Positions 167 through 42,817 of a DNA stretch of 64,000 nt are shown piece by piece. Source of the stretch: Escherichia coli (GTDB lineage Bacteria; Pseudomonadota; Gammaproteobacteria; Enterobacterales; Enterobacteriaceae); NCBI RefSeq assembly GCF_024502345.1, contig NZ_JALDNN010000001.1; one strand, written 5' to 3'. Made by a program: the position numbers and the translations under genes. Each line of letters opens with the position of its first letter. Positions within the stretch are counted from its first letter, which is position 1. The notes beneath the pieces were generated by a model. It had not been told where the DNA came from. It did no database searches and was given only the letters and a program-made list of their open reading frames with translations.

Positions 167-182
167 ACTTCGGACCTGGGCC

Positions 183-215
183 CTGAAAAGGTTTTCAGAT
201 TGAAAACCTTTTCAG
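183..215. repeat. Perfect 14-bp inverted repeat with 5-nt loop between convergent genes; possible bidirectional terminator
   Basis: ctgaaaaggttttc (183-196) / agatt / gaaaaccttttcag (202-215); lies between the esterase-like stop (166) and the yiiD stop (231). The stem is AT-rich, so terminator strength is uncertain. Confidence 0.4.
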
Positions 216-230
216 TCAAGTAAAACGCCC

Positions 231-2523: not shown

Positions 2524-3116
2524 AACACCTTCGCGAAATAGTCCGGGATGGTGGTTTTATCTTTCACCAGAATACTGGTAATGCCCAGCTGATTAGCTCC
2601 TTCTATATTATCGGCGTTATCGTCGAAAAAGGCCGTATCGCTGGGTGAAAAACCTTCCGCCTGCAAAACATGCTGGTAAATTCGAGCTTCAGGTTTGCGC
2701 ATCCCCAGATCTTGCGACAGATAGATATGGTCAGCAGCATCACGAATTTCCGGGTATTCTTCCGGCCAGAAGGTGGTATGCAGGCGGTTGGTATTGGAAA
2801 GCACCACCACGCGATGCTCCTGCTCACGCAGTTTATGCATGATGGCGATCACTTCCGGGCGCAGCGCAACAAACACCGCCTGCCAGCCGTGAGAGAACTG
2901 CTCGTAGCTTAGCGGTAGAGCCATCTCATGACACAGCGCCTCTGCGAACGCTTCGTCGCTAATTTCCCCGCGCTCATGCTGATGAAACGCCTCCCCCATA
3001 TGAAAACTCTTCTTAAGCGATGCCAGCGGAATACGCGTTAAATCGCTCCAGGCTCCCAGCACACGGTTAAAGTCGATATCGACAATCACATTACCTAAAT
3101 CAAAGATATAGAGCAT
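2517..3116 (-). CDS. yihX: HAD-superfamily phosphatase (alpha-D-glucose-1-phosphate phosphatase YihX)
   Basis: ORF-track frame 2517..3137; I place the start at the ATG at 3114-3116 ([18 protein letters not shown] motif I DxG) preceded by GGAGG; the track's upstream start is a GTG. Gives 199 aa. Confidence 0.9.
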
Positions 3117-3226
3117 TTTTGCCTCCTTTCGCGCCACAAGAAATTAACTGTAGCGGGAAAGGATGGGTTTGGCTATGTGGCAAGGTATGAAGCCAGGTCA
3201 ACGGTCACAAAAATCTACGCGTCTTC

Positions 3227-4000
3227 CTAGGGAAGAATGATTTCAATTTGGCTGTCTTGTAAGCGTGATTTTAGCGCAGCGGGCGGCAGCTCGTCGGTGA
3301 AGAGCGCGGTGACCTGTGCCACGTTACCAATTTCAACCGCCGCCGAAGCATGATACTTAGTGTGATCGGCGACCAGCAGGATATTTCTCGCGTGCGCCAT
3401 CATCGTTTTCACCACGTTAGCTTCGTTTACATCAAACTCCATCAACGCGCCATCGCTCTCGATTGCGCCTACGCTTGTTACCAGATAATCAGCACGAAAA
3501 TCGGCCACAAAGGACGCCGCTGAAGGGCCAATGATCCCGCTATTATGAGAGCGCAACGTACCGCCGGGCACCATCACTTCAAAGCGCGGGTTGTGGTAAA
3601 GAATATGCGCCACACGCAGGCTGTTGGTGATTATCCGCAAATGATTATGGTTAAGTAACGCCCGGGCGACATGCTCAACGGTCGTACCAATGGTGATAAA
3701 TATTGTTGAACCATCAGGAATATAGTCTGCCACCGCTTCGGCAATCGCTTTTTTTTCCTCGGTTTGCGAAACCTCACGCTGCTCGAACGCCGTATTAACG
3801 ACGCTGGAAGCCCGACCCGCGCCACCGTGATGGCGCGTAATCAGGCCTTGCTCGCTTAATTTACGAATATCCCGGCGCACCGTCTGCGTGGAGACATCCA
3901 GCAGATTTGCCAGCTCATCAATATTCATATACCCACGCTCGGCGATCAGCATGAGGAGTTGGTCGTGCCGCGGGTTACCGGTTAGTTCGGTAAGGCTCAT
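3227..4000 (-). CDS. yihW: DeoR-family transcriptional regulator of the sulfoquinovose cluster (CsqR/YihW)
   Basis: N-terminal HTH (MNIDELANLLDVSTQTVRRDIRKL) plus DeoR C-terminal sugar-binding domain; start chosen at ATG 3998-4000 (MSLTEL...) with GAGGAA 6 nt upstream; the track's longer start is a GTG. Confidence 0.85.
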   Translation of the reverse strand: MSLTELTGNPRHDQLLMLIAERGYMNIDELANLLDVSTQTVRRDIRKLSEQGLITRHHGGAGRASSVVNTAFEQREVSQTEEKKAIAEAVADYIPDGSTIFITIGTTVEHVARALLNHNHLRIITNSLRVAHILYHNPRFEVMVPGGTLRSHNSGIIGPSAASFVADFRADYLVTSVGAIESDGALMEFDVNEANVVKTMMAHARNILLVADHTKYHASAAVEIGNVAQVTALFTDELPPAALKSRLQDSQIEIILP

Positions 4001-4033
4001 GAAAATTCCTCGAAAAACCATCACCCTGGCATT

Positions 4034-4930
4034 TTATACAAAAAGTGACAAAAAAGATCGGGTTTGATCACAGTCAGGGATCCCGGCTCGTCCACCGGGA
4101 CGCGTGCATTTCAACGCCGCTACACCGCTGGCGAAGCGGACTGACTCCGCTAAATCCCCACCTGTTGCCAGCGCCACCGCCAATGCGCCGTGAAAAACAT
4201 CACCCGCACCTGTGGTATCTACCACATCAACTTTGAAGGCCGGTTGATGTTGACGCCCGCCATTTTCCAGCCAGTCACAGCCTGCGCTGCCCTGGGTCAC
4301 ATAGACATGACCATTTGTGAGCGTTTGTGCCTGTTTTAGCGCACTGGCCATCTCTTTCACACCCGTTAAGCGCGCCAGACCCGGTTCTGAAAAGGCCGCA
4401 TGATCGCTTAATGCCACCAGCTCGCTGATATCCTGCGGCGTAATATCACCGTCCAGAACGGTCATCACGCCCGCCTGCCGGGCCAGAGTGAAGGCTTTTT
4501 TAGCGCCGTCGTGCCAGCGTACATCTGCCAGCACAACATCCCACTGAGAGAAATCAATTTCCTCCAACCACTCTGCGTCAGGCAGCAGGTCCGGGCTGGG
4601 GTAGTTAATGATTATCCGCTCGCCTGTGGCATCCACCATGATGGCGGATTGCGATGATTTCGCCTGGTTATACCGTTTGGTGTAACGGGTGTTAACGCCC
4701 CAGGATTCCAGCTCTGCCAGCAGGCTGTTGCCCGTGTCGTCATCACCTACGCGACCCATAAAATCAACCTGCGCCCCCAGCCTTGCCGCCGCAACCGCTG
4801 CCGTCGCCGCTGGCCCGCCACCAACTTCCGTATAATTTCTCGCCACGTATTTACCGCTCTCCGTCGGTAACCCTTCCACGTAATAGATGCGATCCATCAC
4901 GGTTATACCTACACAAGCAACACGAATCAT
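4034..4930 (-). CDS. yihV: PfkB-family sugar kinase (6-deoxy-6-sulfofructose kinase YihV)
   Basis: PfkB ribokinase-like ORF with GAGD motif (DTTGAGDVFHGA); start set at the third Met (MIRVACVG...), 298 aa, with AAGGA upstream. Confidence 0.9.
   Translation of the reverse strand: MIRVACVGITVMDRIYYVEGLPTESGKYVARNYTEVGGGPAATAAVAAARLGAQVDFMGRVGDDDTGNSLLAELESWGVNTRYTKRYNQAKSSQSAIMVDATGERIIINYPSPDLLPDAEWLEEIDFSQWDVVLADVRWHDGAKKAFTLARQAGVMTVLDGDITPQDISELVALSDHAAFSEPGLARLTGVKEMASALKQAQTLTNGHVYVTQGSAGCDWLENGGRQHQPAFKVDVVDTTGAGDVFHGALAVALATGGDLAESVRFASGVAALKCTRPGGRAGIPDCDQTRSFLSLFV
4038..4050. promoter_or_regulatory. Copy 1 of exact 13-bp motif ACAAAAAGTGACA, upstream of yihW inside the 3' end of yihV; candidate regulator-binding element
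   Basis: Exact repeat of the 13-mer at 5063-5075; a chance exact 13-mer match in 64 kb is unlikely (about 1e-3). Confidence 0.4.
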
Positions 4931-4981
4931 GGTCATTCCTTAAACATTTTGGGATGCGTTCATTTTAATTTCACCAATTGT

Positions 4982-5075
4982 TTAAAAAGTGACGGCTGTC
5001 AATTTTTTGACTATAAATTACAAATACGATCAAAAACAGACAATCAAAGCGTGTCATAAATGACAAAAAGTGACA
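4982..5075. promoter_or_regulatory. yihV/yihU divergent control region with repeated AAAAAGTGAC motifs and the palindrome TGTCATAAATGACA
   Basis: AAAAAGTGAC at 4984-4993 and 5065-5074; palindrome TGTCATAAATGACA at 5052-5065; 13-mer ACAAAAAGTGACA at 5063-5075; TTGACT at 5007-5012. Lies between the divergent yihV and yihU starts. Confidence 0.45.
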
Positions 5076-5097
5076 TCGCTGTATTCAGGAGAAGGTT

Positions 5098-5994
5098 ATG
5101 GCAGCAATCGCGTTTATCGGTTTAGGACAAATGGGTTCGCCAATGGCGAGCAATTTATTGCAGCAAGGGCACCAACTTCGCGTCTTTGATGTGAATGCCG
5201 AGGCTGTGCGGCATCTGGTAGACAAAGGCGCGACTCCCGCCGCCAACCCGGCGCAGGCCGCTAAAGATGCCGAATTTATCATTACCATGTTGCCGAATGG
5301 CGATCTGGTGCGCAGCGTGTTGTTCGGTGAGAACGGCGTTTGCGAAAGCTTATCTACCGATGCGCTGGTCATTGATATGTCGACCATCCATCCGCTGCAA
5401 ACCGATAAATTGATTGCCGATATGCAAGCCAAAGGCTTCAGCATGATGGATGTTCCGGTAGGCCGTACTTCTGCAAATGCCATTACCGGTACTCTGTTAC
5501 TGCTGGCTGGCGGCACCGCTGAACAAGTTGAACGTGCCACGCCGATCCTGATGGCGATGGGCAGTGAGTTGATCAACGCTGGCGGTCCGGGCATGGGGAT
5601 CCGCGTTAAGCTCATCAACAACTATATGAGCATCGCACTCAATGCGCTTTCGGCAGAAGCTGCCGTTTTGTGCGAAGCCCTGAATCTTCCCTTCGATGTT
5701 GCCGTCAAAGTGATGAGCGGTACCGCCGCCGGTAAAGGCCACTTCACCACTTCCTGGCCAAACAAAGTCCTCAGCGGAGATCTTTCTCCCGCCTTCATGA
5801 TCGATCTTGCCCATAAGGATCTTGGCATCGCCCTTGATGTCGCCAACCAGCTGCATGTGCCAATGCCGCTGGGGGCCGCCTCACGGGAGGTTTATAGCCA
5901 GGCGCGCGCAGCGGGTCGCGGTCGCCAGGACTGGTCCGCCATTCTGGAACAGGTCCGTGTCAGTGCCGGGATGACTGCCAAAGTAAAAATGTAA
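5098..5994 (+). CDS. yihU: 3-sulfolactaldehyde reductase (3-hydroxyisobutyrate dehydrogenase family)
   Basis: 298-aa ORF with N-terminal Rossmann motif [10 protein letters not shown]; AGGAGAAGG SD upstream; matches YihU. Confidence 0.95.
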
Positions 5995-6017
5995 CGACTG
6001 GATAAAGGAATAAATGA

Positions 6018-6896
6018 ATGAATAAGTACACCATCAACGACATTACGCGCGCATCGGGCGGTTTTGCCATGCTGGCGGTCGATCAGCGCGAAGCCATGCG
6101 CATGATGTTTGCCGCGGCTGGGGCACCCGCTCCGGTAGCCGATAGCGTTTTAACTGATTTCAAAGTTAACGCGGCGAAGACCCTCTCGCCTTATGCCTCG
6201 GCGATTCTGGTAGATCAACAATTCTGTTACCGCCAGGTGGTTGAGCAAAACGCGATTGCCAAAAGTTGCGCCATGATTGTCGCCGCCGATGAGTTCATTC
6301 CTGGCAACGGTATTCCGGTAGATAGCGTGGTCATTGACCGCAAAATCAATCCGCTACAGATCAAACAAGACGGTGGCAAAGCCTTAAAACTGCTGGTGCT
6401 GTGGCGTAGTGATGAAGATGCGCAGCAACGCCTGGATATGGTGAAAGAGTTTAACGAACTGTGCCACTCACACGGCCTGGTAAGCATTATTGAGCCAGTC
6501 GTCCGCCCACCACGTCGTGGCGATAAATTCGATCGCGAACAAGCGATCATCGATGCCGCCAAAGAGCTGGGCGACAGTGGCGCTGACCTCTACAAAGTTG
6601 AAATGCCGCTTTACGGTAAAGGTCCGCAACAAGAGCTTCTCAGTGCTTCACAACGTCTGAATAACCATATCAATATGCCGTGGGTGATCCTCTCTTCCGG
6701 TGTCGACGAAAAACTGTTCCCGCGTGCCGTACGCGTGGCAATGACAGCGGGTGCATCGGGCTTCCTGGCTGGTCGTGCCGTCTGGGCATCGGTCGTCGGT
6801 TTACCAGACAACGAGTTGATGCTGCGTGACGTTTGTGCACCGAAATTACAACAACTGGGCGATATCGTCGACGAAATGATGGCTAAACGCCGTTAA
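6018..6896 (+). CDS. yihT: 6-deoxy-6-sulfofructose-1-phosphate aldolase (class I aldolase, LacD/DeoC-like)
   Basis: 292-aa ORF 24 bp downstream of yihU; matches YihT. Confidence 0.95.
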
Positions 6897-6911
6897 GATG
6901 GGGATACAAAA

Positions 6912-8153
6912 ATGAAATGGTTTAACACTTTAAGTCACAACCGTTGGCTGGAACAGGAAACCGATCGCATCTTTGATTTTGGTAAAAATTCCGTAGTACC
7001 GACCGGATTTGGCTGGTTAGGCAATAAAGGGCAAATCAAAGAAGAGATGGGCACCCATCTGTGGATCACAGCTCGTATGTTGCACGTTTATTCCGTTGCT
7101 GCGGCGATGGGTCGACCTGGCGCTTACTCGTTGGTTGATCACGGTATTAAAGCCATGAACGGCGCACTGCGCGATAAAAAATATGGCGGCTGGTATGCCT
7201 GTGTGAATGACGAGGGCGTGGTGGATGCCTCCAAACAGGGCTATCAACATTTCTTTGCTCTGCTGGGTGCTGCCAGCGCCGTCACTACCGGTCATCCGGA
7301 AGCGCGCAAGCTGCTCGATTACACCATTGAAATTATCGAGAAATACTTCTGGAGCGAAGAAGAGCAGATGTGCCTGGAGTCCTGGGACGAAGCCTTCAGC
7401 AAAACCGAAGAGTACCGCGGCGGCAATGCCAATATGCACGCAGTGGAAGCTTTCTTAATTGTTTATGACGTAACGCATGACAAAAAATGGCTGGATCGCG
7501 CGATTCGCGTGGCTTCCGTGATTATCCACGACGTCGCAAGAAATAATCATTATCGCGTTAACGAACACTTCGATACCCAGTGGAATCCGCTGCCGGATTA
7601 CAACAAAGATAACCCGGCGCACCGCTTCCGCGCGTTCGGAGGTACACCAGGCCACTGGATCGAATGGGGCCGTTTAATGCTGCACATCCACGCGGCCCTG
7701 GAAGCCCGTTGCGAACAACCGCCAGCATGGTTGCTAGAAGATGCCAAAGGTCTGTTTAACGCCACCGTGCGTGATGCCTGGGCACCCGATGGTGCGGACG
7801 GGATTGTTTATACCGTTGACTGGGAAGGAAAACCGGTGGTCCGCGAACGTGTGCGTTGGCCTATCGTCGAAGCGATAGGTACGGCCTACGCGCTCTACAC
7901 CGTCACCGGCGATCGCCAGTATGAAACCTGGTATCAGACATGGTGGGACTACTGCATTAAGTACCTGATGGACTATGAAAATGGTTCCTGGTGGCAGGAG
8001 CTGGATGCGGACAATAAAGTCACCACGAAAGTCTGGGACGGCAAACAGGATATTTATCACCTGCTGCATTGCCTGGTGATCCCGCGTATCCCGTTAGCGC
8101 CAGGCCTGGCTCCGGCAGTTGCGGCGGGTCTGCTGGATATTAACGCGAAATAA
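6912..8153 (+). CDS. yihS: Sulfoquinovose isomerase (N-acylglucosamine 2-epimerase fold)
   Basis: 413-aa ORF; matches YihS. Confidence 0.95.
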
Positions 8154-8333
8154 CTGACTAAAAAAAAACGACATATCAGGCTGCACGCCGGGTATGTCGT
8201 TATTCAATAAAGGTACCTCGTATGCAAATCACCAACATGCATTGCAGTGGACAGACCGTTTCACTTGCCGCGGGGGATTATCACGCGACCATTGTGACCG
8301 TCGGTGCAGGTCTGGCTGAATTAACCTTTCAGG

Positions 8334-9554
8334 TGTAGATTCAATTGGTCAACGCAACAGTTATGTGAAAACATGGGGTTGCGGAGGTTTTTTGAATGAG
8401 ACGAACATTTACAGCAGAGGAAAAAGCCTCTGTTTTTGAACTATGGAAGAACGGAACAGGCTTCAGTGAAATAGCGAATATCCTGGGTTCAAAACCCGGA
8501 ACGATCTTCACTATGTTAAGGGATACTGGCGGCATAAAACCCCATGAGCGTAAGCGGGCTGTAGCTCACCTGACACTGTCTGAGCGCGAGGAGATACGAG
8601 CTGGTTTGTCAGCCAAAATGAGCATTCGTGCGATAGCTACTGCGCTGAATCGCAGTCCTTCGACGATCTCACGTGAAGTTCAGCGTAATCGGGGCAGACG
8701 CTATTACAAAGCTGTTGATGCTAATAACCGAGCCAACAGAATGGCGAAAAGGCCAAAACCGTGCTTACTGGATCAAAATTTACCATTGCGAAAGCTTGTT
8801 CTGGAAAAGCTGGAGATGAAATGGTCTCCAGAGCAAATATCAGGATGGTTAAGGCGAACAAAACCACGTCAAAAAACGCTGCGAATATCACCTGAGACAA
8901 TTTATAAAACGCTGTACTTTCGTAGCCGTGAAGCGCTACACCACCTGAATATACAGCATCTGCGACGGTCGCATAGCCTTCGCCATGGCAGGCGTCATAC
9001 CCGCAAAGGCGAAAGAGGTACGATTAACATAGTGAACGGAACACCAATTCACGAACGTTCCCGAAATATCGATAACAGACGCTCTCTGGGGCATTGGGAG
9101 GGCGATTTAGTCTCAGGTACAAAAAACTCTCATATAGCCACACTTGTAGACCGAAAATCACGTTATACGATCATCCTTAGACTCAGGGGCAAAGATTCTG
9201 TCTCAGTAAATCAGGCTCTTACCGACAAATTCCTGAGTTTACCGTCAGAACTCAGAAAATCACTGACATGGGACAGAGGAATGGAACTGGCCAGACATCT
9301 AGAATTTACTGTCAGCACCGGCGTTAAAGTTTACTTCTGCGATCCTCAGAGTCCTTGGCAGCGGGGAACAAATGAGAACACAAATGGGCTAATTCGGCAG
9401 TACTTTCCTAAAAAGACATGTCTTGCCCAATATACTCAACATGAACTAGATCTGGTTGCTGCTCAGCTAAACAACAGACCGAGAAAGACACTGAAGTTCA
9501 AAACACCGAAAGAGATAATTGAAAGGGGTGTTGCATTGACAGATTGAATCTACA
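8334..9554 (+). mobile_element. Insertion sequence IS30, complete 1221-bp copy, flanked by 2-bp target-site duplication GG
   Basis: Left end TGTAGATTCAATTGGTCAACGCAACAGTTATGTG..., right end ...TTGACAGATTGAATCTACA (terminal inverted repeats); length 1221 bp; GG at 8332-8333 and 9555-9556; encodes a 383-aa transposase. Confidence 0.95.
8396..9547 (+). CDS. insI: IS30 transposase (DDE family)
   Basis: 383-aa ORF MRRTFTAEEKASVFELWKNGTGF... with N-terminal HTH and C-terminal DDE domain; recognised as the IS30 transposase. Confidence 0.95.
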   Translation: MRRTFTAEEKASVFELWKNGTGFSEIANILGSKPGTIFTMLRDTGGIKPHERKRAVAHLTLSEREEIRAGLSAKMSIRAIATALNRSPSTISREVQRNRGRRYYKAVDANNRANRMAKRPKPCLLDQNLPLRKLVLEKLEMKWSPEQISGWLRRTKPRQKTLRISPETIYKTLYFRSREALHHLNIQHLRRSHSLRHGRRHTRKGERGTINIVNGTPIHERSRNIDNRRSLGHWEGDLVSGTKNSHIATLVDRKSRYTIILRLRGKDSVSVNQALTDKFLSLPSELRKSLTWDRGMELARHLEFTVSTGVKVYFCDPQSPWQRGTNENTNGLIRQYFPKKTCLAQYTQHELDLVAAQLNNRPRKTLKFKTPKEIIERGVALTD

Positions 9555-10407
9555 GGGCTGTCATTTAGTTATTCCACATAAACCCGAAGAGATGCCGCTG
9601 GCACATCTGGGCAAAGTCCTTATTCCGTGGCCGAACCGGATCGCCAACGGCTGTTATCGCTATCAGGGGCAGGAATATCAGTTACCCATTAATGAACATG
9701 GTTCAAAAGCCGCTATTCATGGGCTGCTCGCCTGGCGTGACTGGCAAATCAGCGAATTAACCGCCACCAGCGTTACCCTGACAGCTTTTCTGCCACCCAG
9801 TTACGGCTATCCGTTTATGCTGGCTTCGCAGGTTGTTTATTCGCTCAATGCACGCACGGGTCTTTCCGTTGAGATCGCAAGTCAGAATATTGGTACTGTG
9901 ACCGCACCCTATGGTGTGGGTATTCATCCTTATTTAACCTGCAACTTAACATCTGTTGATGAATATCTGTTCCAGCTTCCGGCAAACCAGGTTTATGCCG
10001 TCGATGAGCACGCTAATCCGACAACGCTTCACCACGTTGATGAGCTGGATTTAAATTTCACGCAGGCGAAAAAAATAGCCGCGACAAAAATCGACCACAC
10101 CTTTAAAACCGCTAATGATCTGTGGGAAATAACCATTACCCATCCACAACAGGCGCTTTCGGTAAGCCTTTGTTCCGATCAACCCTGGGTGCAGATTTAT
10201 AGCGGCGAAAAATTACAGCGTCAGGGACTGGCAGTTGAACCTATGAGTTGCCCACCTAACGCCTTTAATTCAGGTCTCGACTTATTATTACTGGAACCAG
10301 GGAAAACGCACCGCCTGTTTTTTAATATTTACGGGCAGCACAATTAATTTTATTAAGAAAAGAACGAGATCATTGTTTAGGGTTGTATTTACACAACAGG
10401 AAATATC

Positions 10408-11283
10408 ATGGACTTTTTTACGTTATTTTCACCGGATGGGGTCATGCTGGAAACAAACGTGGTATGTATCGTTATCGCGTTAATGTTTCTTTATACCTTT
10501 GTGGGGATATGCGCGGGATTTGGCGGTGGTTTAACCACCATGCCGCTCGTCACGTTAATGCTCCCCGTAAAAATGGCAACTCCGCTCTCGGTGATTGTCG
10601 GCACCGCGACCGCCTTGTACGCCACCTGGCTGTCACGTAAAGAAACGGATTGGCGATCGGCAATGGTACTGATTATTTTCTCGTTTCTGGGAATACCCGT
10701 CGGTTTATATGCGCTGTCATATTTACCCGACCATTTTATGAAAGTGGGCTTAGGCGGATTCCTTATCCTGTACTCCTTTTACAGTATGTTTATTCCACGC
10801 CTGCCGATTTATGACCGCAACTGGATCGCCGCACCTATCGGCGCTGTGGCAGGAGCGTTAGGGGCAGCGTTTTCAACCAACGGACCGCCGATGGTTATCT
10901 ACGGTATGCTGCGTAACTTAGGCCCGGCGGCATTTCGTGGCACTCTGAACGCTTTCTTCACCGCAAACAACATCGCGGTGATCGGCGGGCTGGCGACCAG
11001 CGGAATTTTGACTGTTTCTATCTTTAAACTGGTGCTGTTTTGTATTCCCACCATGATCCTCGGTTCACTGGTTGGACAATATGTGCATAAACGCATTTCA
11101 GTCAAAGTGTTCCGTGTGATGGTCTTTTTGTTGCTGATTGCCTCCGGTTCTATGTTGATAAAAGGCGCGCTGGGAATTCCCGCTGCTGCCGCGCTTCTGC
11201 CTCCTTTTACCTTGTTAGTTATACTGCAACTGGCATTTGGTAAAAAAGTGGCGGCAATCCGCCGGGCTGAAGAAAGTAAATAA
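10408..11283 (+). CDS. TauE/SafE (TSUP, DUF81) family anion permease; putative sulfite or organosulfonate exporter
   Basis: 291-aa polytopic membrane protein with the family hallmark glycine motif (GICAGFGGGLTTMPL) and a second repeat (GAVAGALGAAFSTNGPP); AGGAAA SD 6 nt before the ATG; host-like GC and codon usage. Sits between yihR and yihQ. Confidence 0.8.
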   Translation: MDFFTLFSPDGVMLETNVVCIVIALMFLYTFVGICAGFGGGLTTMPLVTLMLPVKMATPLSVIVGTATALYATWLSRKETDWRSAMVLIIFSFLGIPVGLYALSYLPDHFMKVGLGGFLILYSFYSMFIPRLPIYDRNWIAAPIGAVAGALGAAFSTNGPPMVIYGMLRNLGPAAFRGTLNAFFTANNIAVIGGLATSGILTVSIFKLVLFCIPTMILGSLVGQYVHKRISVKVFRVMVFLLLIASGSMLIKGALGIPAAAALLPPFTLLVILQLAFGKKVAAIRRAEESK

Positions 11284-11391
11284 TCACTTATGCGGGTTTT
11301 AATTTATACCAGCACCACATTCTTTAATTAATGAAACCTGTAACAACAGGATGGCATGAAATATTAGCTTTATACTCTATGGAGATTATTT

Positions 11392-13424
11392 ATGGATACG
11401 CCACGCCCACAATTACCAGATTTTCAGTTTCATCAGAATAACGACAGTTTTACCCTACATTTTCAACAGCGTCTTATTTTAACCCATAGCAAAGATAATC
11501 CTTGTTTATGGATTGGTTCAGGTATTGCGGATATCGATATGTTCCGCGGCAATTTCAGCATTAAAGATAAACTACAGGAGAAAATTGCGCTTACCGACGC
11601 CATCGTCAGCCAGTCGCCGGATGGTTGGTTAATCCATTTCAGCCGTGGTTCTGACATTAGCGCCACGCTGAATATCTCTGCCGACGATCAGGGCCGTTTA
11701 TTGCTGGAACTACAAAACGACAACCTTAACCACAACCGTATCTGGCTGCGCCTTGCCGCTCAACCAGAGGACCATATCTACGGCTGCGGCGAACAGTTTT
11801 CCTACTTCGATCTGCGTGGCAAACCGTTCCCGCTATGGACCAGTGAACAAGGCGTTGGTCGCAATAAACAAACCTATGTCACCTGGCAGGCCGACTGCAA
11901 AGAAAATGCGGGCGGCGACTATTACTGGACTTTCTTCCCACAGCCTACGTTTGTCAGCACGCAGAAGTATTACTGCCATGTTGATAACAGTTGCTATATG
12001 AACTTCGACTTTAGTGCCCCGGAATACCATGAACTGGCGCTGTGGGAAGACAAAGCAACGCTGCGTTTTGAATGTGCTGACACATACATCTCCCTGCTGG
12101 AAAAATTAACCGCCCTGCTGGGACGCCAGCCAGAACTGCCCGACTGGATTTATGACGGAGTAACGCTCGGCATTCAGGGCGGGACGGAAGTGTGCCAGAA
12201 GAAACTGGACACCATGCGTAACGCGGGCGTGAAGGTCAACGGCATCTGGGCGCAGGACTGGTCCGGTATTCGTATGACCTCTTTTGGCAAACGCGTGATG
12301 TGGAACTGGAAGTGGAACAGCGAAAACTACCCGCAACTGGATTCGCGTATCAAGCAGTGGAACAAAGAGGGCGTGCAGTTCCTTGCCTATATCAACCCGT
12401 ATGTTGCCAGTGATAAAGATCTCTGCGAAGAGGCGGCAAAGCGCGGTTATCTGGCAAAAGATGTCGCCGGTGGCGACTATCTGGTGGAGTTTGGCGAGTT
12501 CTACGGCGGCGTTGTCGATCTCACCAATCCGGAAGCCTACGCCTGGTTCAAGGAAGTTATCAAAAAGAACATGATTGAACTCGGCTGCGGCGGCTGGATG
12601 GCTGACTTCGGCGAGTATCTGCCCACCGACACGTACCTGCATAACGGCATCAGCGCGGAAATTATGCATAACGCCTGGCCCGCGCTGTGGGCGAAATGTA
12701 ACTACGAAGCCTTGAAGAAACGGGCAAGCTCGGCGAGATCCTCTTCTTTATGCGCGCCGGTTCTACCGGTAGCCAGAAATACTCCACCATGATGTGGGCG
12801 GGTGACCAGAACGTGGACTGGAGTCTGGACGATGGCCTGGCGTCGGTTGTCCCGGCGGCGCTATCTCTGGCAATGACCGGACATGGCCTGCATCACAGCG
12901 ACATTGGCGGTTATACCACCCTGTTTGAGATGAAGCGCAGCAAAGAGCTGCTGCGCTGGTGCGATTTCAGCGCCTTCACGCCGATGATGCGCACCCACGA
13001 AGGTAACCGTCCTGGCGACAACTGGCAGTTTGACGGCGACGCGGAAACCATCGCCCATTTCGCCCGTATGACCACCGTCTTCACCACCCTGAAACCTTAC
13101 CTGAAAGAGGCCGTCGCGCTGAATGCGAAGTCCGGCCTGCCGGTTATGCGCCCGCTGTTCCTGCATTACGAAGACGACGCGCAGACCTATTCCCTGAAAT
13201 ATCAGTACCTGTTAGGTCGCGACATTCTGATTGCTCCGGTACACGAAGAAGGTCGCAGCGACTGGACGCTCTATCTGCCAGAGGATAACTGGGTCCACGC
13301 CTGGACCGGAGAAACCTTCCACGGTGGAGAAATAACTGTTGAAGCGCCCATCGGCAAGCCGCCGGTCTTTTATCGCGCCGACAGCGAATGGGCTGCACTG
13401 TTCGCCTCGTTAAAAAACATCTAA
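11392..13424 (+). pseudogene. yihQ: Sulfoquinovosidase (GH31) gene with a -1 frameshift
   Basis: Two overlapping ORFs (11392-12792 and 12750-13424) in different frames both match YihQ. Frame 1 reads ...CNYEAL through 12712-12714; frame 2 reads EETGKLGEILFFMRAGS from 12714. Continuity needs GCC TTG GAA GAA where the sequence has GCC TTG AAG AAA, i.e. one G missing at 12714/12715. Confidence 0.8.
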
Positions 13425-13469
13425 TCATGCCCGCCCGTGGGGAAACTCACGGGCAAATGGAGAATAACG

Positions 13470-14855
13470 ATGAGTCACATCACAACGGAAGATCCGGCAA
13501 CTTTGCGCCTGCCCTTTAAAGAGAAACTCTCTTACGGTATCGGCGATCTGGCCTCTAACATCCTGCTGGATATTGGTACGCTTTATCTTTTGAAGTTTTA
13601 TACCGACGTTCTGGGGCTACCTGGCACCTATGGCGGCATTATCTTTTTGATCTCGAAATTCTTTACCGCCTTTACCGATATGGGAACCGGCATCATGTTG
13701 GATTCCCGGCGTAAGATTGGCCCGAAAGGTAAGTTCCGCCCTTTCATTTTGTACGCGTCATTCCCGGTCACCTTATTGGCAATCGCTAACTTTATCGGCA
13801 CACCGTTCGATGTCACTGGTAAAACGGTGATGGCCACTATTCTATTTATGCTCTACGGGCTGTTTTTCAGCATGATGAACTGCTCCTACGGCGCAATGGT
13901 TCCCGCCATTACCAAAAACCCCAACGAACGCGCATCGCTGGCGGCATGGCGTCAGGGTGGTGCTACATTGGGCCTGCTGCTGTGTACGGTGGGATTCGTG
14001 CCGGTGATGAACCTTATCGAAGGTAATCCGCAACTGAGCTACGTTTTCGCCGCCACGCTATTTTCACTGTTCGGCCTGCTGTTTATGTGGATCTGCTACT
14101 CGGGCGTGAAAGAGCGTTATGTCGAAACCCAACCTGCTAATCAGGCGCAAAAGCCAGGCTTGCTGCAATCTTTCCGCGCAATTGCCGGTAACCGCCCACT
14201 GTTCATTCTGTGTATTGCCAACCTCTGCACCTTAGGGGCGTTTAACGTCAAGCTCGCCATTCAGGTCTATTACACCCAGTACGTGCTTAACGATCCCATC
14301 CTGTTGTCGTATATGGGATTTTTTAGCATGGGCTGTATTTTCATCGGCGTGTTCCTGATGCCTGGCGCAGTTAGACGTTTTGGTAAGAAGAAGGTCTATA
14401 TCGGCGGCCTGCTGATTTGGGTGCTTGGCGATCTGCTCAACTATTTCTTCGGCGGCGGCTCGGTCAGTTTTGTGGCGTTCTCCTGCCTGGCATTCTTTGG
14501 CTCGGCGTTTGTTAACAGCCTGAACTGGGCGCTGGTTTCCGACACCGTCGAGTACGGCGAGTGGCGCACCGGTGTCCGTTCTGAAGGGACGGTCTACACC
14601 GGCTTCACCTTCTTTCGCAAAGTGTCTCAGGCGCTGGCTGGTTTCTTCCCCGGCTGGATGCTGACGCAAATCGGCTATGTGCCGAACGTGGCGCAGGCTG
14701 ACCACACCATTGAAGGGTTGCGCCAGCTGATCTTCATCTACCCAAGCGCACTGGCGGTAGTCACCATTGTGGCGATGGGTTGCTTCTACAGTCTGAACGA
14801 GAAGATGTACGTCCGCATTGTTGAAGAAATAGAAGCCCGTAAACGCACGGCGTAA
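13470..14855 (+). CDS. yihP: GPH-family (glycoside-pentoside-hexuronide:cation symporter) transporter
   Basis: Start set at ATG 13470 (MSHITTEDPATLRL...) preceded by GGAG; 461 aa; paralogous to the adjacent yihO. Confidence 0.9.
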   Translation: MSHITTEDPATLRLPFKEKLSYGIGDLASNILLDIGTLYLLKFYTDVLGLPGTYGGIIFLISKFFTAFTDMGTGIMLDSRRKIGPKGKFRPFILYASFPVTLLAIANFIGTPFDVTGKTVMATILFMLYGLFFSMMNCSYGAMVPAITKNPNERASLAAWRQGGATLGLLLCTVGFVPVMNLIEGNPQLSYVFAATLFSLFGLLFMWICYSGVKERYVETQPANQAQKPGLLQSFRAIAGNRPLFILCIANLCTLGAFNVKLAIQVYYTQYVLNDPILLSYMGFFSMGCIFIGVFLMPGAVRRFGKKKVYIGGLLIWVLGDLLNYFFGGGSVSFVAFSCLAFFGSAFVNSLNWALVSDTVEYGEWRTGVRSEGTVYTGFTFFRKVSQALAGFFPGWMLTQIGYVPNVAQADHTIEGLRQLIFIYPSALAVVTIVAMGCFYSLNEKMYVRIVEEIEARKRTA

Positions 14856-14894
14856 TAATAAACGACGCCCTGCGGGGCGTTATAAGGAGTGATT

Positions 14895-16298
14895 ATGTCT
14901 GACCATAATCCACTGACATTAAAACTGAATCTGCGGGAAAAAATCGCCTATGGTATGGGCGACGTTGGTTCGAATTTAATGCTTAGCATCGGTACTCTGT
15001 ATCTCCTCAAATTTTATACCGATGAATTAGGGATGCCAGCTTACTATGGCGGGATTATCTTTCTGGTGGCGAAGTTTTTTACCGCGTTTACCGATATGCT
15101 CACCGGATTTTTACTCGACTCGCGGAAAAATATTGGGCCTAAAGGCAAATTTCGTCCCTTTATTTTATATGCAGCGGTTCCGGCGGCGTTAATTGCAACG
15201 CTCCAGTTTATCGCCACCACTTTTAGTTTGCCGGTTAAAACGACGATTGCCACGGCGCTGTTTATGATGTTTGGGCTTTCATACAGTCTGATGAACTGCT
15301 CGTATGGCGCGATGATCCCGGCAATTACCAAAAACCCGAATGAGCGCGCGCAGCTCGCTGCTTACCGCCAGGGTGGTGCAACCATAGGGCTATTGATTTG
15401 TACCGTGGCGTTTATTCCGTTGCAGTCGCTTTTTTCTGACTCAACCGTCGGTTATGCCTGTGCGGCACTTATGTTCTCCATTGGCGGCTTTATTTTTATG
15501 ATGCTGTGCTACAGAGGCGTCAAAGAGCATTATGTGGACACAGCGCCAACCGGACATAAAGCCAGTATTCTCAAATCATTTTGCGCGATATTTCGGAATC
15601 CGCCATTGCTGGTTTTATGCATTGCTAACTTGTGTACCCTGGCGGCATTTAATATCAAACTGGCGATTCAGGTCTATTACACCCAGTATGTGCTGCATGA
15701 TATTAATTTATTGTCGTGGATGGGATTCTTCAGTATGGGATGCATCCTCATCGGCGTATTACTGGTGCCATTAACTGTAAAATGTTTTGGTAAAAAACAG
15801 GTTTATTTAGCTGGCATGGTGCTATGGGCGGTTGGTGATATCCTGAATTATTTCTGGGGAAGTAACTCTTTCACTTTCGTCATGTTCTCTTGTGTCGCCT
15901 TTTTTGGCACGGCCTTTGTAAACAGCCTGAACTGGGCGCTGGTACCAGATACCGTAGATTACGGTGAATGGAAAACCGGTATTCGTGCCGAAGGTTCTGT
16001 TTATACCGGTTATACCTTCTTTCGTAAAATTTCTGCCGCACTTGCTGGCTTCTTGCCAGGCATTATGCTGACGCAAATCGGTTATGTTCCCAACATCGCG
16101 CAAAGTGATGCGACATTACAGGGTTTGCGTCAGCTCATTTTTATCTGGCCTTGTGCACTGGCAATTATTGCTGCATTGACGATGGGATTCTTTTACACAC
16201 TCAATGAAAAACGGTTTGCGTTGATTATTGAGGAAATCAACCAACGCAAAAATAAAGAAATTGAGACAGAAGAAAAAACGGCTTCCGTAACGTTATAA
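14895..16298 (+). CDS. yihO: GPH-family transporter (sulfoquinovose / SQ-glycerol importer)
   Basis: Start set at ATG 14895 (MSDHNPLTLKL...) with AAGGAG 5 nt upstream; 467 aa. Confidence 0.9.
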   Translation: MSDHNPLTLKLNLREKIAYGMGDVGSNLMLSIGTLYLLKFYTDELGMPAYYGGIIFLVAKFFTAFTDMLTGFLLDSRKNIGPKGKFRPFILYAAVPAALIATLQFIATTFSLPVKTTIATALFMMFGLSYSLMNCSYGAMIPAITKNPNERAQLAAYRQGGATIGLLICTVAFIPLQSLFSDSTVGYACAALMFSIGGFIFMMLCYRGVKEHYVDTAPTGHKASILKSFCAIFRNPPLLVLCIANLCTLAAFNIKLAIQVYYTQYVLHDINLLSWMGFFSMGCILIGVLLVPLTVKCFGKKQVYLAGMVLWAVGDILNYFWGSNSFTFVMFSCVAFFGTAFVNSLNWALVPDTVDYGEWKTGIRAEGSVYTGYTFFRKISAALAGFLPGIMLTQIGYVPNIAQSDATLQGLRQLIFIWPCALAIIAALTMGFFYTLNEKRFALIIEEINQRKNKEIETEEKTASVTL

Positions 16299-16364
16299 AT
16301 GTCAATAGCCGCTATTTCCATCCTGGTGGGTGGCGGCCTCCCTACGTTTAAAAATGGACTTATT

Positions 16365-17057
16365 ATGAAAAATATTAATGCAATAATTTTATTATCTTCT
16401 CTGACCTCTGCCTCAGTATTCGCTGGCGCATACGTCGAAAACAGGGAGGCATATAATCTCGCCTCCGATCAGGGCGAGGTTATGCTACGTGTGGGTTATA
16501 ACTTCGATATGGGCGCGGGTATTATGTTAACCAATACCTACACCTTTCAGCGAGAAGATGAACTAAAACATGGATATAACGAAATCGAAGGTTGGTATCC
16601 GTTATTTAAACCAACCGATAAATTAACCATCCAGCCCGGTGGCTTAATTAATGATAAGAGTATCGGTTCGGGTGGTGCAGTGTATCTGGACGTCAACTAT
16701 AAATTTGTACCATGGTTTAATCTGACAGTACGAAATCGCTATAACCATAATAACTATAGTTCAACAGATTTGAGCGGGGAACTGGATAATAATGACACCT
16801 ATGAAATTGGTACCTACTGGAATTTTAAAATCACCGATAAGTTCTCCTATACATTTGAGCCACATTATTTTATACGCGTAAATGACTTTAATAGCAGCAA
16901 TGGAAAAGATCATCACTGGGAAATCACTAACACCTTCCGTTATCGCATTAATGAACACTGGCTGCCTTATTTCGAATTACGCTGGTTAGATCGTAATGTC
17001 GAACCGTACCACCGCGAGCAAAACCAGATTCGTATCGGGACGAAGTATTTCTTCTGA
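16365..17057 (+). CDS. ompL: Outer-membrane porin OmpL
   Basis: Start set at ATG 16365 (MKNINAIILLSSLTSASVFA, signal peptide); 230 aa; ends in an aromatic C-terminal residue (F) typical of beta-barrel proteins. Confidence 0.85.
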   Translation: MKNINAIILLSSLTSASVFAGAYVENREAYNLASDQGEVMLRVGYNFDMGAGIMLTNTYTFQREDELKHGYNEIEGWYPLFKPTDKLTIQPGGLINDKSIGSGGAVYLDVNYKFVPWFNLTVRNRYNHNNYSSTDLSGELDNNDTYEIGTYWNFKITDKFSYTFEPHYFIRVNDFNSSNGKDHHWEITNTFRYRINEHWLPYFELRWLDRNVEPYHREQNQIRIGTKYFF

Positions 17058-17066
17058 TGTGAAACT

Positions 17067-17142
<76 letters not shown>

Positions 17143-17147
17143 ATTAA

Positions 17148-18413
17148 TTAAGCTTCAGCCGCCAGCATCTCTTTCTTACGTTGGCTAATACGCTTAACCA
17201 GCATTACGGAAACCACCGCACCACAGAATGCGAAGCAGGCCATAATGCCAAACACGATTTTGTAGCCAATAATCCCCGGATTTAAATCCAGAATGTAGCC
17301 ATACAGACTGAAGCAGAACATCGCCGGGGCGTAACCAATAAAGCTACCCAACGCCATCGCCGCGCCTGTTTTATTTTCAGCAATTTTTGCTTCGCCGATA
17401 GGTGCAAAAAATACGGCTCGCTGTGTAAAGACTATCGCGCCAAAGCCCAGCGTACATGCCATCCCTAAATAGACCGGCATACTTTCGTGCGGCAGCATAA
17501 TCAACAGTACGAGCGCAGCGGTACTGATGATAAAGGTGTAGCATAGATATTTACTCGGCGATTTCAGGATCTTATCTGAAATCATGCCACCAATCGGTCC
17601 ACCAATCATTTTCAGACAGTATTGGTTAATGATGCCGTAAGCCCCCACCAGCGCAACGGGCAATAGATAGATGTTTTTCAGGAATGGAATGAAGAATGTC
17701 AGGCCACAGTAAACCGCGTAAACGAAGAAGACGTTGAAAGCGATAAGCCAGATAGTTTTGTCTTTCAGCACCGAGGTCATACTGGTGTTTTGCGATGCCC
17801 CGTCTTCTTTTTTCACCTCAACGGACGGTGCCTCTTCTTTGTCATTCAGGACAAAGAAAATAATAATGCCTACGGCAATCACAATAAGGGAATAGAACCA
17901 GATGCCTGCTTTAAAACCTAATAAGCCACTGCCAAACCAGGTAAATACTGCCAACGCAGAAAATGCCACCACGGTATCGACAATGCCACGCCCTGTTTCG
18001 AAGAAGCCAAACAACCGACCTTGTTGTTCGCTATTGCCCAATCGACTTACCGACTTGAGCAAGACCGGCCAGTTCATCATGTCGCAAGTAACGCCAAATA
18101 GCGCCCAGACAAAGAGGATGCCCCAATACCCCGGCATTGTCGTCAAATAAACACCCAGTAATCCTGTCGCAATGAGTGAGAATGACATGGTGTATCTGCG
18201 CGGTAGTTTATCGGCAAAATAAATAGACAGAAAAAAGCCCACTGTGGTGACAAATGAGTTTACCGACATAGCATTACCAATTTGACCATTGGTCAAATGG
18301 AAATATTCCTGCATCGGGATATAAAACGCATCTTTCAGCGACGGTAATTTATAAATTGTACCGCCACACAGTGTTAATAGACTAAATAACGCCCATTTCT
18401 TTTTCGTGAGCAT
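17148..18413 (-). CDS. yihN: MFS transporter
   Basis: 421-aa ORF with about 12 predicted TM segments; matches YihN. Confidence 0.9.
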   Translation of the reverse strand: MLTKKKWALFSLLTLCGGTIYKLPSLKDAFYIPMQEYFHLTNGQIGNAMSVNSFVTTVGFFLSIYFADKLPRRYTMSFSLIATGLLGVYLTTMPGYWGILFVWALFGVTCDMMNWPVLLKSVSRLGNSEQQGRLFGFFETGRGIVDTVVAFSALAVFTWFGSGLLGFKAGIWFYSLIVIAVGIIIFFVLNDKEEAPSVEVKKEDGASQNTSMTSVLKDKTIWLIAFNVFFVYAVYCGLTFFIPFLKNIYLLPVALVGAYGIINQYCLKMIGGPIGGMISDKILKSPSKYLCYTFIISTAALVLLIMLPHESMPVYLGMACTLGFGAIVFTQRAVFFAPIGEAKIAENKTGAAMALGSFIGYAPAMFCFSLYGYILDLNPGIIGYKIVFGIMACFAFCGAVVSVMLVKRISQRKKEMLAAEA

Positions 18414-18514
18414 AACATCCCCTAAGCGATTTTTAAAATCACTGTTTTAAAGGCAATAAGATACCGACCATTCATATAGAATGGTTTTATTAACTGCGTA
18501 TGAGTTAAAACTTA

Positions 18515-29159: not shown

Positions 29160-29227
29160 AATGGTTCGTCTTTTAGCCGTTTTATTCAGTATAGATTTGC
29201 GGCGGAATCTAACAGAAAGCAAGCAAA

Positions 29228-39914: not shown

Positions 39915-42817
<2,903 letters not shown>

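What the first reader, a model, noticed from the sequence alone, without database searches (positions are those of the whole stretch)
10348..11391. Extra TauE/SafE (TSUP)-family permease gene embedded in the sulfoquinovose cluster between yihR and yihQ
A 291-aa polytopic membrane protein with the glycine-rich TSUP hallmark (GICAGFGGGLTTMPL plus a second repeat) is encoded co-directionally between the mutarotase gene and the sulfoquinovosidase gene. As far as I recall, the canonical K-12 cluster (ompL-yihO-P-Q-R-S-T-U-V-W) has no gene at this position. TauE/SafE proteins export sulfite, sulfoacetate or sulfolactate in other sulfonate-degradation pathways. The sulfo-EMP pathway ends in DHPS, which must be excreted, and its exporter in E. 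coli is not firmly assigned. This gene is therefore a candidate DHPS or sulfonate exporter, or a sulfite exporter linking to a further desulfonation step. Its GC content and codon usage look host-like, so it may be an ancestral component lost from K-12 rather than a recent import.
Basis: partly seen in the sequence, partly recalled or inferred. Interest (0 to 1): 0.8.

Follow-up and report, generated by a model that had tools for sequence, protein, structure and literature searches.

The report
Conserved TauE-type permease in sulfoquinovose cluster
A real, well-conserved membrane-transporter gene sits between yihR and yihQ in the sulfoquinovose-degradation cluster of about a third of E. coli that have the cluster, and of Salmonella and Citrobacter; K-12 has lost it, and it is most likely the pathway's sulfonate (DHPS) exporter, though nobody has tested that.

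Summary
Window 10408-11283 (+) encodes an intact 291-aa TauE/TSUP permease (Pfam PF01925, E=4.7e-35) between yihR and yihQ. K-12 has an unrelated 198-nt spacer there.

The gene is not rare. It occurs in 1296 of 5426 complete E. coli genomes, including O157:H7, which is about one third of those that carry yihQ. PGAP already labels it 'sulfite exporter TauE/SafE family protein'.

It occupies the same position in E. whittamii, Salmonella enterica and Citrobacter farmeri, and it has diverged as much as its neighbours. It is therefore ancestral, and the K-12 haplotype lost it.

Orthologues (77-87% identical) were found only in sulfoquinovose clusters, in all 13 species sampled. Some are sulfo-EMP clusters. 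Others are sulfo-ED-type operons, where the only other transporter is a sodium/solute symporter. The next relatives are at most 38% identical, and two that I sampled lie in unrelated contexts.

The best reading is a DHPS (C3-sulfonate) exporter. This is inferred, not shown. None of the sampled clusters contains an evident desulfonating enzyme, so sulfite export is unlikely.

In this window the cluster is damaged. An IS30 element splits yihR just upstream, and yihQ is frameshifted.

Verdict: a new member of a known kind, of moderate interest.

The parts
10408..11283 (+). Intact CDS for a 291-aa TauE/TSUP-family permease (stop codon included). It is the sulfoquinovose-cluster clade with a clade-specific C-terminal helix (about residues 252-291).
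   Evidence: ORF. Pfam PF01925 E=4.7e-35. 100% nt identity to intact copies in E. coli strains such as 510016. AF2 model pLDDT 94.1, all-helical membrane fold. C-terminal extension conserved in 13 orthologues and absent in distant homologues.
10348..10407 (+). 60-nt yihR-TSUP spacer, with Shine-Dalgarno AGGA at 10398-10401. No promoter-like or terminator-like site on the + strand.
   Evidence: Sequence. Consensus scan.
11284..11391 (+). 108-nt TSUP-yihQ spacer. Only the last 58 nt (11334-11391) are shared with the K-12-type spacer. It includes the inverted repeat CCTGTAACAACAGG (11337-11350).
   Evidence: blastn of the K-12 spacer against the window and loci. Scans.
8222..8333 (+). 5' fragment of yihR (SQ mutarotase), cut off by IS30.
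   Evidence: Alignment to the intact locus L001.
8334..9554 (+). IS30-type insertion sequence, 1221 bp, with terminal inverted repeats, a 2-bp target duplication (GG) and a transposase ORF at 8396..9547.
   Evidence: The junction is not found in any of 5426 complete E. coli genomes.
9555..10347 (+). 3' fragment of yihR.
11392..13424 (+). yihQ (sulfoquinovosidase), here with a 1-nt deletion near 12710 (GCCC to GCC) that shifts the frame, and an in-frame 3-nt deletion near 12946.
   Evidence: ORFs 11392..12792 and 12750..13424. Alignment to the intact yihQ of L001.
13470..14855 (+). yihP (GPH-family MFS permease; the K-12 literature calls it the putative DHPS exporter).
   Evidence: PMC6278857.
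14895..16298 (+). yihO (GPH-family MFS permease; SQ importer in K-12).
   Evidence: PMC6278857.
5098..8153 (+). yihU (SLA reductase, 5098-5994), yihT (SFP aldolase, 6018-6896) and yihS (SQ isomerase, 6912-8153), upstream and co-directional.
3227..4930 (-). csqR (3227-4012) and yihV (4034-4930), divergently transcribed regulator and SF kinase.

Best explanation
The gene encodes a secondary transporter of the TSUP/TauE family. It is an ancestral, vertically inherited component of the enterobacterial sulfoquinovose (SQ) catabolic cluster. Its most likely role is to export the anionic C3-sulfonate end product, 2,3-dihydroxypropane-1-sulfonate (DHPS), which YihU makes from sulfolactaldehyde. It is probably co-transcribed with the neighbouring yih genes. 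The K-12-type haplotype, found in about two thirds of yihQ-carrying E. coli, replaced the gene with about 142 nt of unrelated DNA and must export DHPS by another route (YihP or something else).

Shown: the gene is real and intact, it belongs to PF01925, it is conserved in position and under purifying selection, and its orthologues are confined to SQ clusters.

Inferred: the substrate (DHPS), the direction (export) and co-transcription.

In this particular genome the pathway context is degraded (IS30 in yihR, frameshift in yihQ), so the gene may currently be poorly expressed or idle.
For: (1) Family: PF01925, E=4.7e-35, full-length match. AF2 gives a confident polytopic helical model (pLDDT 94.1, pTM 0.90).

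(2) Ancestry: the yihR-TauE-yihQ order is the same in E. whittamii, Salmonella enterica (that protein is indexed in 23,831 blocks) and Citrobacter farmeri. Against Salmonella, TSUP is 86.9% aa identical and its neighbours 85.6-96.9% (yihR 69%). dN is 0.087, against 0.075-0.096 for four neighbours (yihS 0.021, yihR 0.220). Against E. whittamii, dS is 0.22 (neighbours 0.21-0.55) and dN/dS is 0.014.

(3) Functional linkage: every orthologue context examined (13 species) is an SQ cluster.
- Sulfo-EMP clusters with the gene in a different slot: yihQ-TSUP-yihP in Enterobacteriaceae RIT691, and yihQ-TSUP-single MFS in Klebsiella quasipneumoniae.
- Sulfo-ED-type operons (IlvD/Edd dehydratase, HpcH aldolase, mutarotase, SGL lactonase, beta-hydroxyacid dehydrogenase, SDR, TSUP, with a divergent LacI regulator and SSF symporter): Hafnia, Kluyvera, Enterobacter kobei, Mixta, Leminorella, Edwardsiella and Vibrio owensii. 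PMC7491151 independently lists Hafnia, Leminorella and Vibrio as carriers of sulfo-ED clusters.

(4) Export rather than import: each cluster already has a sugar-type symporter (GPH MFS or SSF). In the ED-type operons and in K. quasipneumoniae there is exactly one such importer plus TSUP. The single Klebsiella MFS is closer to YihO (73.9%) than to YihP (67.8%). K-12 lacks TSUP, and its yihO deletion mutant fails to grow on SQ (PMC6278857).

(5) Shared function: in E. kobei, where ED-type and EMP clusters lie side by side, there is only one mutarotase and one TSUP. This fits a function common to both routes.

(6) Precedent: TauE-type permeases are the predicted sulfolactate/DHPS exporters of sulfo-TAL and actinobacterial sulfo-EMP clusters (PMC7491151; PMC8873060). 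The assignment of YihP as DHPS exporter is only 'most likely' (PMC6278857).

(7) Distinct clade: in a library clustered at 50% identity there is a single full-length representative (80% identical). After it comes a gap to proteins of about 240 aa at 38% identity or less. Two of those lie in unrelated contexts.
Against: There is no transport, expression or mutant data for this protein or any orthologue in the literature I could search. K-12 lacks the gene yet is reported to excrete DHPS, so the gene is dispensable for export in at least that background. The founding member that names the TSUP family is an uptake system (4-toluene sulfonate), and one paper reads TauE/TSUP proteins of sulfoglycolysis clusters as SQ importers (PMC8940949). 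The beta-hydroxyacid dehydrogenase of the ED-type operons is only 28-31% identical to YihU and has PVVKSV where YihU has PVGRTS, so DHPS as the product of those operons is itself inferred. No promoter or terminator evidence establishes co-transcription.
Confidence: 0.55

Rival explanations
1. It is an importer of sulfoquinovose or an SQ glycoside (for example sulfoquinovosyl glycerol), adding a third uptake route alongside YihO and YihP.
For: The TSUP family is named after a sulfonate uptake system. [quoted passage not shown] The gene travels with the SQ mutarotase in E. kobei, which is a substrate-side function.
Against: Every cluster sampled already has a dedicated sugar-type symporter (GPH MFS or SSF). 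A K-12 yihO mutant cannot grow on SQ, and K-12 grows on SQ without this gene. The ED-type operons lack a sulfoquinovosidase, so a glycoside importer would have no purpose there.
Confidence: 0.15
2. It is a sulfite exporter, as its database name says, removing sulfite released by a desulfonation step.
For: The PGAP name is 'sulfite exporter TauE/SafE family protein'. The Pfam family name is the same.
Against: The name is a family label only; no NCBIfam equivalog model hits the protein. None of the 13 clusters examined encodes an evident sulfolyase, sulfoacetaldehyde acetyltransferase, SQ monooxygenase or other desulfonating enzyme. The sulfo-EMP pathway ends in DHPS without releasing sulfite (PMC6278857).
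Confidence: 0.05
3. It is a transporter that is conserved with the cluster but acts on something other than SQ or DHPS, for example as a safety valve for toxic sulfosugar intermediates or sulfolactaldehyde, or as a carrier of a counter-ion. Alternatively it is functionally redundant and drifting towards loss, as in K-12.
For: The gene has been lost from about two thirds of yihQ-carrying E. coli genomes, with the rest of the cluster retained. Substrates of TSUP proteins are poorly defined (PMC8873060).
Against: Strong purifying selection (dN/dS 0.014). Identity of 77-87% across Enterobacterales and Vibrio, with strict confinement to SQ clusters in the sample. This argues against a drifting gene and for a specific role tied to the pathway.
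Confidence: 0.2

Closest known systems
TauE/SafE/TsaS proteins of the TSUP family (Pfam PF01925, DUF81; TauE of Cupriavidus necator, cited in PMC8873060)
   Same: Same Pfam family with a full-length match. Glycine-rich motifs in both halves. Genetic association with organosulfonate metabolism.
   Different: It is not a close relative of any other lineage. Outside its own clade the best full-length relatives are at most 38% identical and about 50 residues shorter. It carries a conserved extra C-terminal helix. Its cluster has no evident sulfite-releasing enzyme, so the 'sulfite exporter' label probably does not describe it.
SftE, the TauE-type 'predicted SL/DHPS exporter' of the sulfo-TAL (SFT) clusters of Firmicutes (PMC7491151), and the TauE permease of Arthrobacter sulfo-EMP clusters (PMC8873060)
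   Same: A TauE-type permease encoded inside a sulfoglycolysis cluster, with a predicted role in excreting the C3-sulfonate product. Equally uncharacterised biochemically.
   Different: Different bacterial phyla and cluster types. I did not compare the sequences, but none falls in the same 50% identity cluster. The enterobacterial protein coexists with YihP, the current textbook candidate for the same job.
YihP of E. coli K-12 (GPH-family MFS; 'putative 2,3-dihydroxypropane-1-sulfonate export protein')
   Same: Encoded in the same cluster and proposed for the same function, DHPS export.
   Different: Unrelated fold and family (MFS_2, against TauE). YihP is about 65% identical to the importer YihO and belongs to a family of glycoside:cation symporters. 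K. quasipneumoniae keeps TSUP and a YihO-like MFS but has no second MFS.
BacA/UppP fold (PDB 5oon, 6fmt)
   Same: Best structural analogue of the AF2 model in the PDB (TM-score 0.44-0.50).
   Different: No significant sequence or Foldseek E-value (best 1.3e-2). No solved TSUP structure exists in the PDB copy searched. This is a resemblance, not membership.

Membership tests
TSUP / TauE-SafE family (Pfam PF01925) | Significant, near full-length match to the PF01925 profile | tested here: met
   E=4.7e-35, residues 23-248, model positions 2-235 of 237. All homologues carry precomputed PF01925 hits.
TSUP / TauE-SafE family (Pfam PF01925) | Polytopic membrane protein built from two similar halves (4+4 TMS internal duplication, as I recall from Shlykov et al. 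2012, which I could not read) | tested here: inconclusive
   The AF2 model shows two runs with the same helix pattern (H16-36/40-48/54-75/82-105/108-128 and H138-155/159-168/173-198/203-227/232-255) plus an extra helix at 259-290. Profile-profile alignment of the halves gives only a weak in-register match (E=0.026). BLAST of the halves finds nothing.
TSUP / TauE-SafE family (Pfam PF01925) | Transport of sulfite or an organosulfonate | not testable with these tools
   No experimental data found. Needs transport assays.
Orthologue of characterised TauE (sulfite/sulfoacetate export) as the database name implies | Close sequence relationship to a characterised member, or a match to a curated equivalog model | tested here: not met
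   No NCBIfam model matches at E<=1e-5. Outside its own clade the nearest proteins are at most 38% identical. The cluster has no evident desulfonating enzyme.
Component of the enterobacterial sulfoquinovose (sulfo-EMP, yih) gene cluster | Co-directional position inside the cluster, conserved in other genera | tested here: met
   yihR-TSUP-yihQ in E. coli, E. whittamii, Salmonella and Citrobacter. yihQ-TSUP-MFS in RIT691 and K. quasipneumoniae.
Component of the enterobacterial sulfoquinovose (sulfo-EMP, yih) gene cluster | Evolves with the cluster (vertical inheritance, purifying selection) | tested here: met
   dN, dS and identity equal to those of neighbours against Salmonella and E. whittamii.
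Component of the enterobacterial sulfoquinovose (sulfo-EMP, yih) gene cluster | SQ-inducible, CsqR-controlled expression | not testable with these tools
   The only indirect evidence is short spacers (60 and 108 nt) with no + strand terminator-like site.
DHPS/C3-sulfonate exporter of sulfoglycolysis (functional class) | Present wherever DHPS is the product and no other exporter candidate exists | tested here: inconclusive
   In seven ED-type operons it is the only non-sugar-type transporter, and it partners a single MFS in K. quasipneumoniae. However, K-12-type E. coli lack it, and DHPS as the product of the ED-type operons is inferred from a beta-HAD only 28-31% identical to YihU.

The most novel reading that the evidence does not exclude
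This tight TSUP clade, and not YihP, is the native DHPS exporter of enterobacterial sulfoglycolysis. It would serve both the sulfo-EMP and the sulfo-ED-type routes. The K-12-based textbook model (YihO imports, YihP exports) would then describe a haplotype that has lost the dedicated exporter, with YihP really being a second importer, for example for SQ glycosides.
Probability: 0.3. Interest if true: 0.55.

Novelty: new member of a known kind. Interest (0 to 1): 0.4.

Why it matters
DHPS excreted by Enterobacteriaceae feeds sulfite- and sulfonate-respiring gut bacteria that make H2S, yet the export step of the sulfo-EMP pathway has never been assigned experimentally. The YihP assignment is a guess based on K-12.

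A conserved, pathway-specific TSUP permease is present in Salmonella, in Citrobacter and in a third of yihQ-carrying E. coli, including O157:H7. It gives a concrete candidate that can be knocked out. The natural presence/absence polymorphism offers a ready-made comparison.

If confirmed, it would give the poorly characterised TSUP family a defined physiological substrate, correct a misleading 'sulfite exporter' annotation, and show that the K-12 cluster is a reduced version of the ancestral one.

Tried and rejected
- **K-12 spacer as a remnant of the gene:** rejected. Sensitive blastn finds only the yihQ-proximal 56-58 nt in common. The other 142 nt match nothing fetched.
- **A third gene at this site in strain MLI104K2 (L002, reverse-strand 'hypothetical protein'):** rejected. 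The region is a low-quality, G-rich mis-assembly of the same TSUP gene.
- **Recent horizontal import:** rejected, on composition, shared position in three genera, matched divergence and no plasmid copies in E. coli.
- **Sequence search of the PDB and Foldseek against the PDB:** no TSUP structure exists. BacA/UppP is only a loose analogue.
- **Internal duplication by BLAST or hhalign:** weak and inconclusive.
- **Search for a shared operator motif (TGTAACAACAGG) elsewhere in the cluster:** no more matches than chance.
- **Promoter and terminator scans of the two spacers:** nothing on the + strand, and counts are no higher than in shuffled sequence.
- **Residue-level test of whether the ED-type beta-HAD is an SLA reductase:** suggestive at best (PVVKSV against PVGRTS).
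- **Literature:** ten full-text searches found no paper naming this E. coli/Salmonella gene. Denger et al. 2014, Felux et al. 2015 and Shlykov et al. 2012 are not held, so I cannot exclude that a figure in one of them already shows it.
- **Not determined:** the phylogroup distribution within E. coli, and the identity of the strain the window comes from.
Full report
**1. What is in the sequence**

The interval 10348-11391 is the whole gap between the stop of yihR (10347) and the start of yihQ (11392). Inside it is one ORF, 10408..11283 on the + strand, with an ATG start and 291 codons. An AGGA Shine-Dalgarno sequence lies 6 nt upstream.

The product matches Pfam PF01925 (TauE) over almost the whole model (E=4.7e-35).

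An AlphaFold2 model built on a 100-sequence alignment is confident (pLDDT 94.1, pTM 0.90) and entirely helical. It shows two runs with the same helix pattern, followed by one extra C-terminal helix at residues 259-290.

The PDB holds no relative by sequence and no significant match by fold. The loose best analogue is BacA/UppP (TM-score 0.44-0.50).

**2. Comparison with K-12 and the E. coli population**

In MG1655, yihR and yihQ are separated by a 198-nt spacer with no annotated gene. The alignment breaks at the last two codons of yihR and resumes 56-58 nt before the yihQ start. The remaining 142 nt of the K-12 spacer resemble nothing in the TSUP-bearing haplotype.

Counts among 5426 complete E. 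coli genomes:

| Feature | Genomes |
|---|---|
| TSUP-type segment | 1296 (1287 near full length; chromosomal only; 90-100% nt identity for all but one; includes O157:H7) |
| K-12-type spacer | 2634 |
| 5' end of yihQ | 3906 |

The locus is therefore dimorphic: about one third TSUP, about two thirds K-12 type. Roughly 1500 genomes have no detectable yihQ 5' end.

RefSeq annotates the gene as 'sulfite exporter TauE/SafE family protein'. The exact protein of the window is on record from at least 1000 contigs.

**3. Ancestral or imported**

The same yihR-TauE-yihQ order is found in three other taxa:
- Escherichia whittamii, 99% aa identity.
- Salmonella enterica, 87% aa identity.
- Citrobacter farmeri.

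Against Salmonella, the protein is 86.9% identical. The other cluster proteins are 85.6-96.9% identical, with yihR at 69%. Its dN is 0.087, against 0.075-0.096 for four of its neighbours (yihS is 0.021 and yihR 0.220), and dS is saturated as it is for the neighbours.

Against E. whittamii, dS is 0.22 (neighbours 0.21-0.55) and dN/dS is 0.014. GC and GC3 lie within the range of the cluster.

This is the signature of vertical inheritance under purifying selection. The K-12 state is a loss, or more exactly a replacement by a short unrelated segment.

Strain 510016 is 100% and 99.8% identical to K-12 in yihP and yihO, but only 95-97% identical from yihT to yihQ. The two haplotypes therefore seem to move as a recombination block. 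This last point is inference.

**4. What the relatives say about function**

Orthologues at 77-87% identity are widespread in Enterobacterales and reach Vibrio. I examined the context in 13 species, and every one is a sulfoquinovose cluster.

Sulfo-EMP clusters:
- E. coli, E. whittamii, Salmonella and Citrobacter have the gene between yihR and yihQ.
- Enterobacteriaceae RIT691 has it between yihQ and yihP.
- Klebsiella quasipneumoniae has it between yihQ and a single MFS permease. That permease is closer to YihO (73.9%) than to YihP (67.8%).

Sulfo-ED-type operons occur in Hafnia, Kluyvera, Enterobacter kobei, Mixta, Leminorella, Edwardsiella and Vibrio owensii. There the gene closes an operon that encodes:
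- an IlvD/Edd dehydratase;
- an HpcH/HpaI aldolase;
- an aldose epimerase;
- an SGL lactonase;
- a beta-hydroxyacid dehydrogenase;
- an SDR dehydrogenase.

A LacI regulator and an SSF symporter are transcribed divergently. This is the enzyme set of the sulfo-ED pathway. PMC7491151 independently names Hafnia, Leminorella and Vibrio as carriers of sulfo-ED clusters.

In E. kobei the ED-type operon lies next to a sulfo-EMP cluster that lacks both yihR and the TSUP gene. The pair of clusters therefore shares one mutarotase and one TSUP.

In a library clustered at 50% identity, the clade has a single full-length representative. After it there is a gap to proteins of about 240 aa that are at most 38% identical. 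Two of these lie in unrelated contexts.

The clade also has a conserved extension of about 40 residues at the C terminus (motif FGKKVAAIR) that the distant relatives lack.

**5. Most likely mechanism**

The two pathway types share only their ends: SQ goes in (hence the mutarotase) and a C3 sulfonate comes out. Every cluster already carries a sugar-type symporter, either a GPH-family MFS or an SSF protein. In the ED-type operons and in Klebsiella there is exactly one of these plus the TSUP protein. A K-12 yihO mutant does not grow on SQ, and K-12 itself grows on SQ without the TSUP gene (PMC6278857).

TauE-type permeases are the standing candidates for sulfolactate/DHPS export in sulfo-TAL clusters and in actinobacterial sulfo-EMP clusters. 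The assignment of YihP as the exporter is only 'most likely', and I found no later test of it.

I therefore read the protein as the exporter of DHPS made by YihU, with confidence of about 0.55.

What has been shown is the gene, its family, its conservation and its linkage to SQ clusters. Substrate, direction and co-transcription are inferred. A driving force such as membrane-potential-driven anion efflux is speculation.

**6. Rival explanations**

- **Importer of SQ or SQ glycosides (0.15).** PMC8940949 reads the family this way. But the clusters do not lack importers, and the ED-type operons have no sulfoquinovosidase.
- **Sulfite exporter, as named (0.05).** None of the sampled clusters contains an evident desulfonating enzyme, and no curated equivalog model matches.
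- **Another pathway-linked substrate, or a redundant gene on its way out (0.2).** Loss in two thirds of yihQ-carrying E. coli shows the gene is dispensable. A dN/dS of 0.014 and identity of 77-87% across families argue against drift.

**7. The state of this particular window**

- An IS30-type element of 1221 bp, with a 2-bp target duplication, sits at 8334-9554 and splits yihR. None of the 5426 complete E. coli genomes has this junction.
- yihQ carries a 1-nt deletion near 12710 (GCCC to GCC) that breaks the frame. It also has an in-frame 3-nt deletion near 12946, relative to strain 510016.

The TSUP gene itself is 100% identical to copies in intact clusters. The damage is therefore probably recent, or the frameshift could be a sequencing error. 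If transcription comes from upstream, IS30 may be polar on the TSUP gene and on what follows.

**8. Novelty and score**

The gene is common, annotated at family level, and of a kind already predicted in other sulfoglycolysis clusters. At least one paper alludes to TauE transporters in sulfo-EMP clusters.

I found no paper that names or tests the E. coli/Salmonella gene.

I rate it a new member of a known kind, with interest 0.4. It makes the open question of who exports DHPS directly testable, and it shows that the K-12 cluster is a reduced form of the ancestral one. It is not a surprise in kind.

Noticed in passing
window 8334-9554 (yihR fragments at 8222-8333 and 9555-10347): A 1221-bp IS30-type element with a 2-bp GG target duplication splits the SQ mutarotase gene yihR directly upstream of the finding. 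This junction is absent from all 5426 complete E. coli genomes searched.
   Followed up: yes
window about 12710 and about 12946 (yihQ 11392-13424): The sulfoquinovosidase gene has a 1-nt deletion (GCCC to GCC) that frameshifts it into two ORFs. It also has an in-frame CTG deletion, both relative to strain 510016. This is either a pseudogene or a sequencing error.
   Followed up: partly
L015 (Enterobacter kobei) 3037-9876 and 11315-18876: A sulfo-ED-type operon and a sulfo-EMP cluster lie side by side. The EMP part lacks yihR and the TSUP gene, so the two routes appear to share one mutarotase and one TSUP permease.
   Followed up: partly
L014 (Kluyvera ascorbata) 68-9885, next to typA/glnA at 9945-13557: The sulfo-ED-type operon occupies the same chromosomal neighbourhood (beside typA-glnA) that holds the sulfo-EMP cluster in E. 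coli, Salmonella and Citrobacter. This suggests one SQ pathway replaced the other at a single locus.
   Followed up: no
L007, L008, L012-L015, L017 (beta-hydroxyacid dehydrogenase gene, e.g. L013 7328-8197): The enterobacterial and Vibrio sulfo-ED-type operons carry a beta-hydroxyacid dehydrogenase (28-31% identical to YihU, with PVVKSV where YihU has PVGRTS) and no aldehyde dehydrogenase. Their end product may therefore be DHPS rather than sulfolactate.
   Followed up: partly
window 11160-11280 (protein residues about 252-291): A C-terminal extension of about 40 residues, with a predicted extra helix and the motif FGKKVAAIR, is conserved in all 13 orthologues. It is absent from the nearest distant TSUP homologues (at most 38% identical).
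   Followed up: partly
window 11337-11350: The inverted repeat CCTGTAACAACAGG lies upstream of yihQ, at the edge of the haplotype-specific segment. K-12 keeps it with one change (CCTGTAATAACAGG). It may be a regulatory site or a minus-strand terminator-like hairpin.
   Followed up: partly
L001 (E. coli 510016) against L003 (K-12): yihP and yihO are 100% and 99.8% nt identical to K-12, but yihT-yihQ is only 95-97% identical. The TSUP haplotype looks like a recombination block inside a K-12-like background. In L001 an IS1 also truncates yihO and removes ompL.
   Followed up: partly
L002 (E. coli MLI104K2) 5130-6000: A low-quality, G-rich stretch of assembly covers the TSUP gene and is annotated as a reverse-strand 'hypothetical protein'. 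This is an annotation artefact, not a third allele.
   Followed up: yes
protein cluster 1: The 90%-identity cluster that holds the window's TauE protein also lists 299-300-aa entries named 'aldose-1-epimerase', and its representative is 300 aa. This clustering oddity is unexplained.
   Followed up: no
window 39705-44805, 29217-29470, 30499-30617, 59916-60167: Ordinary landmarks of this E. coli region: an rRNA operon with two tRNAs, CsrC, Spot 42 and the Erse sRNA. Nothing unusual.
   Followed up: no
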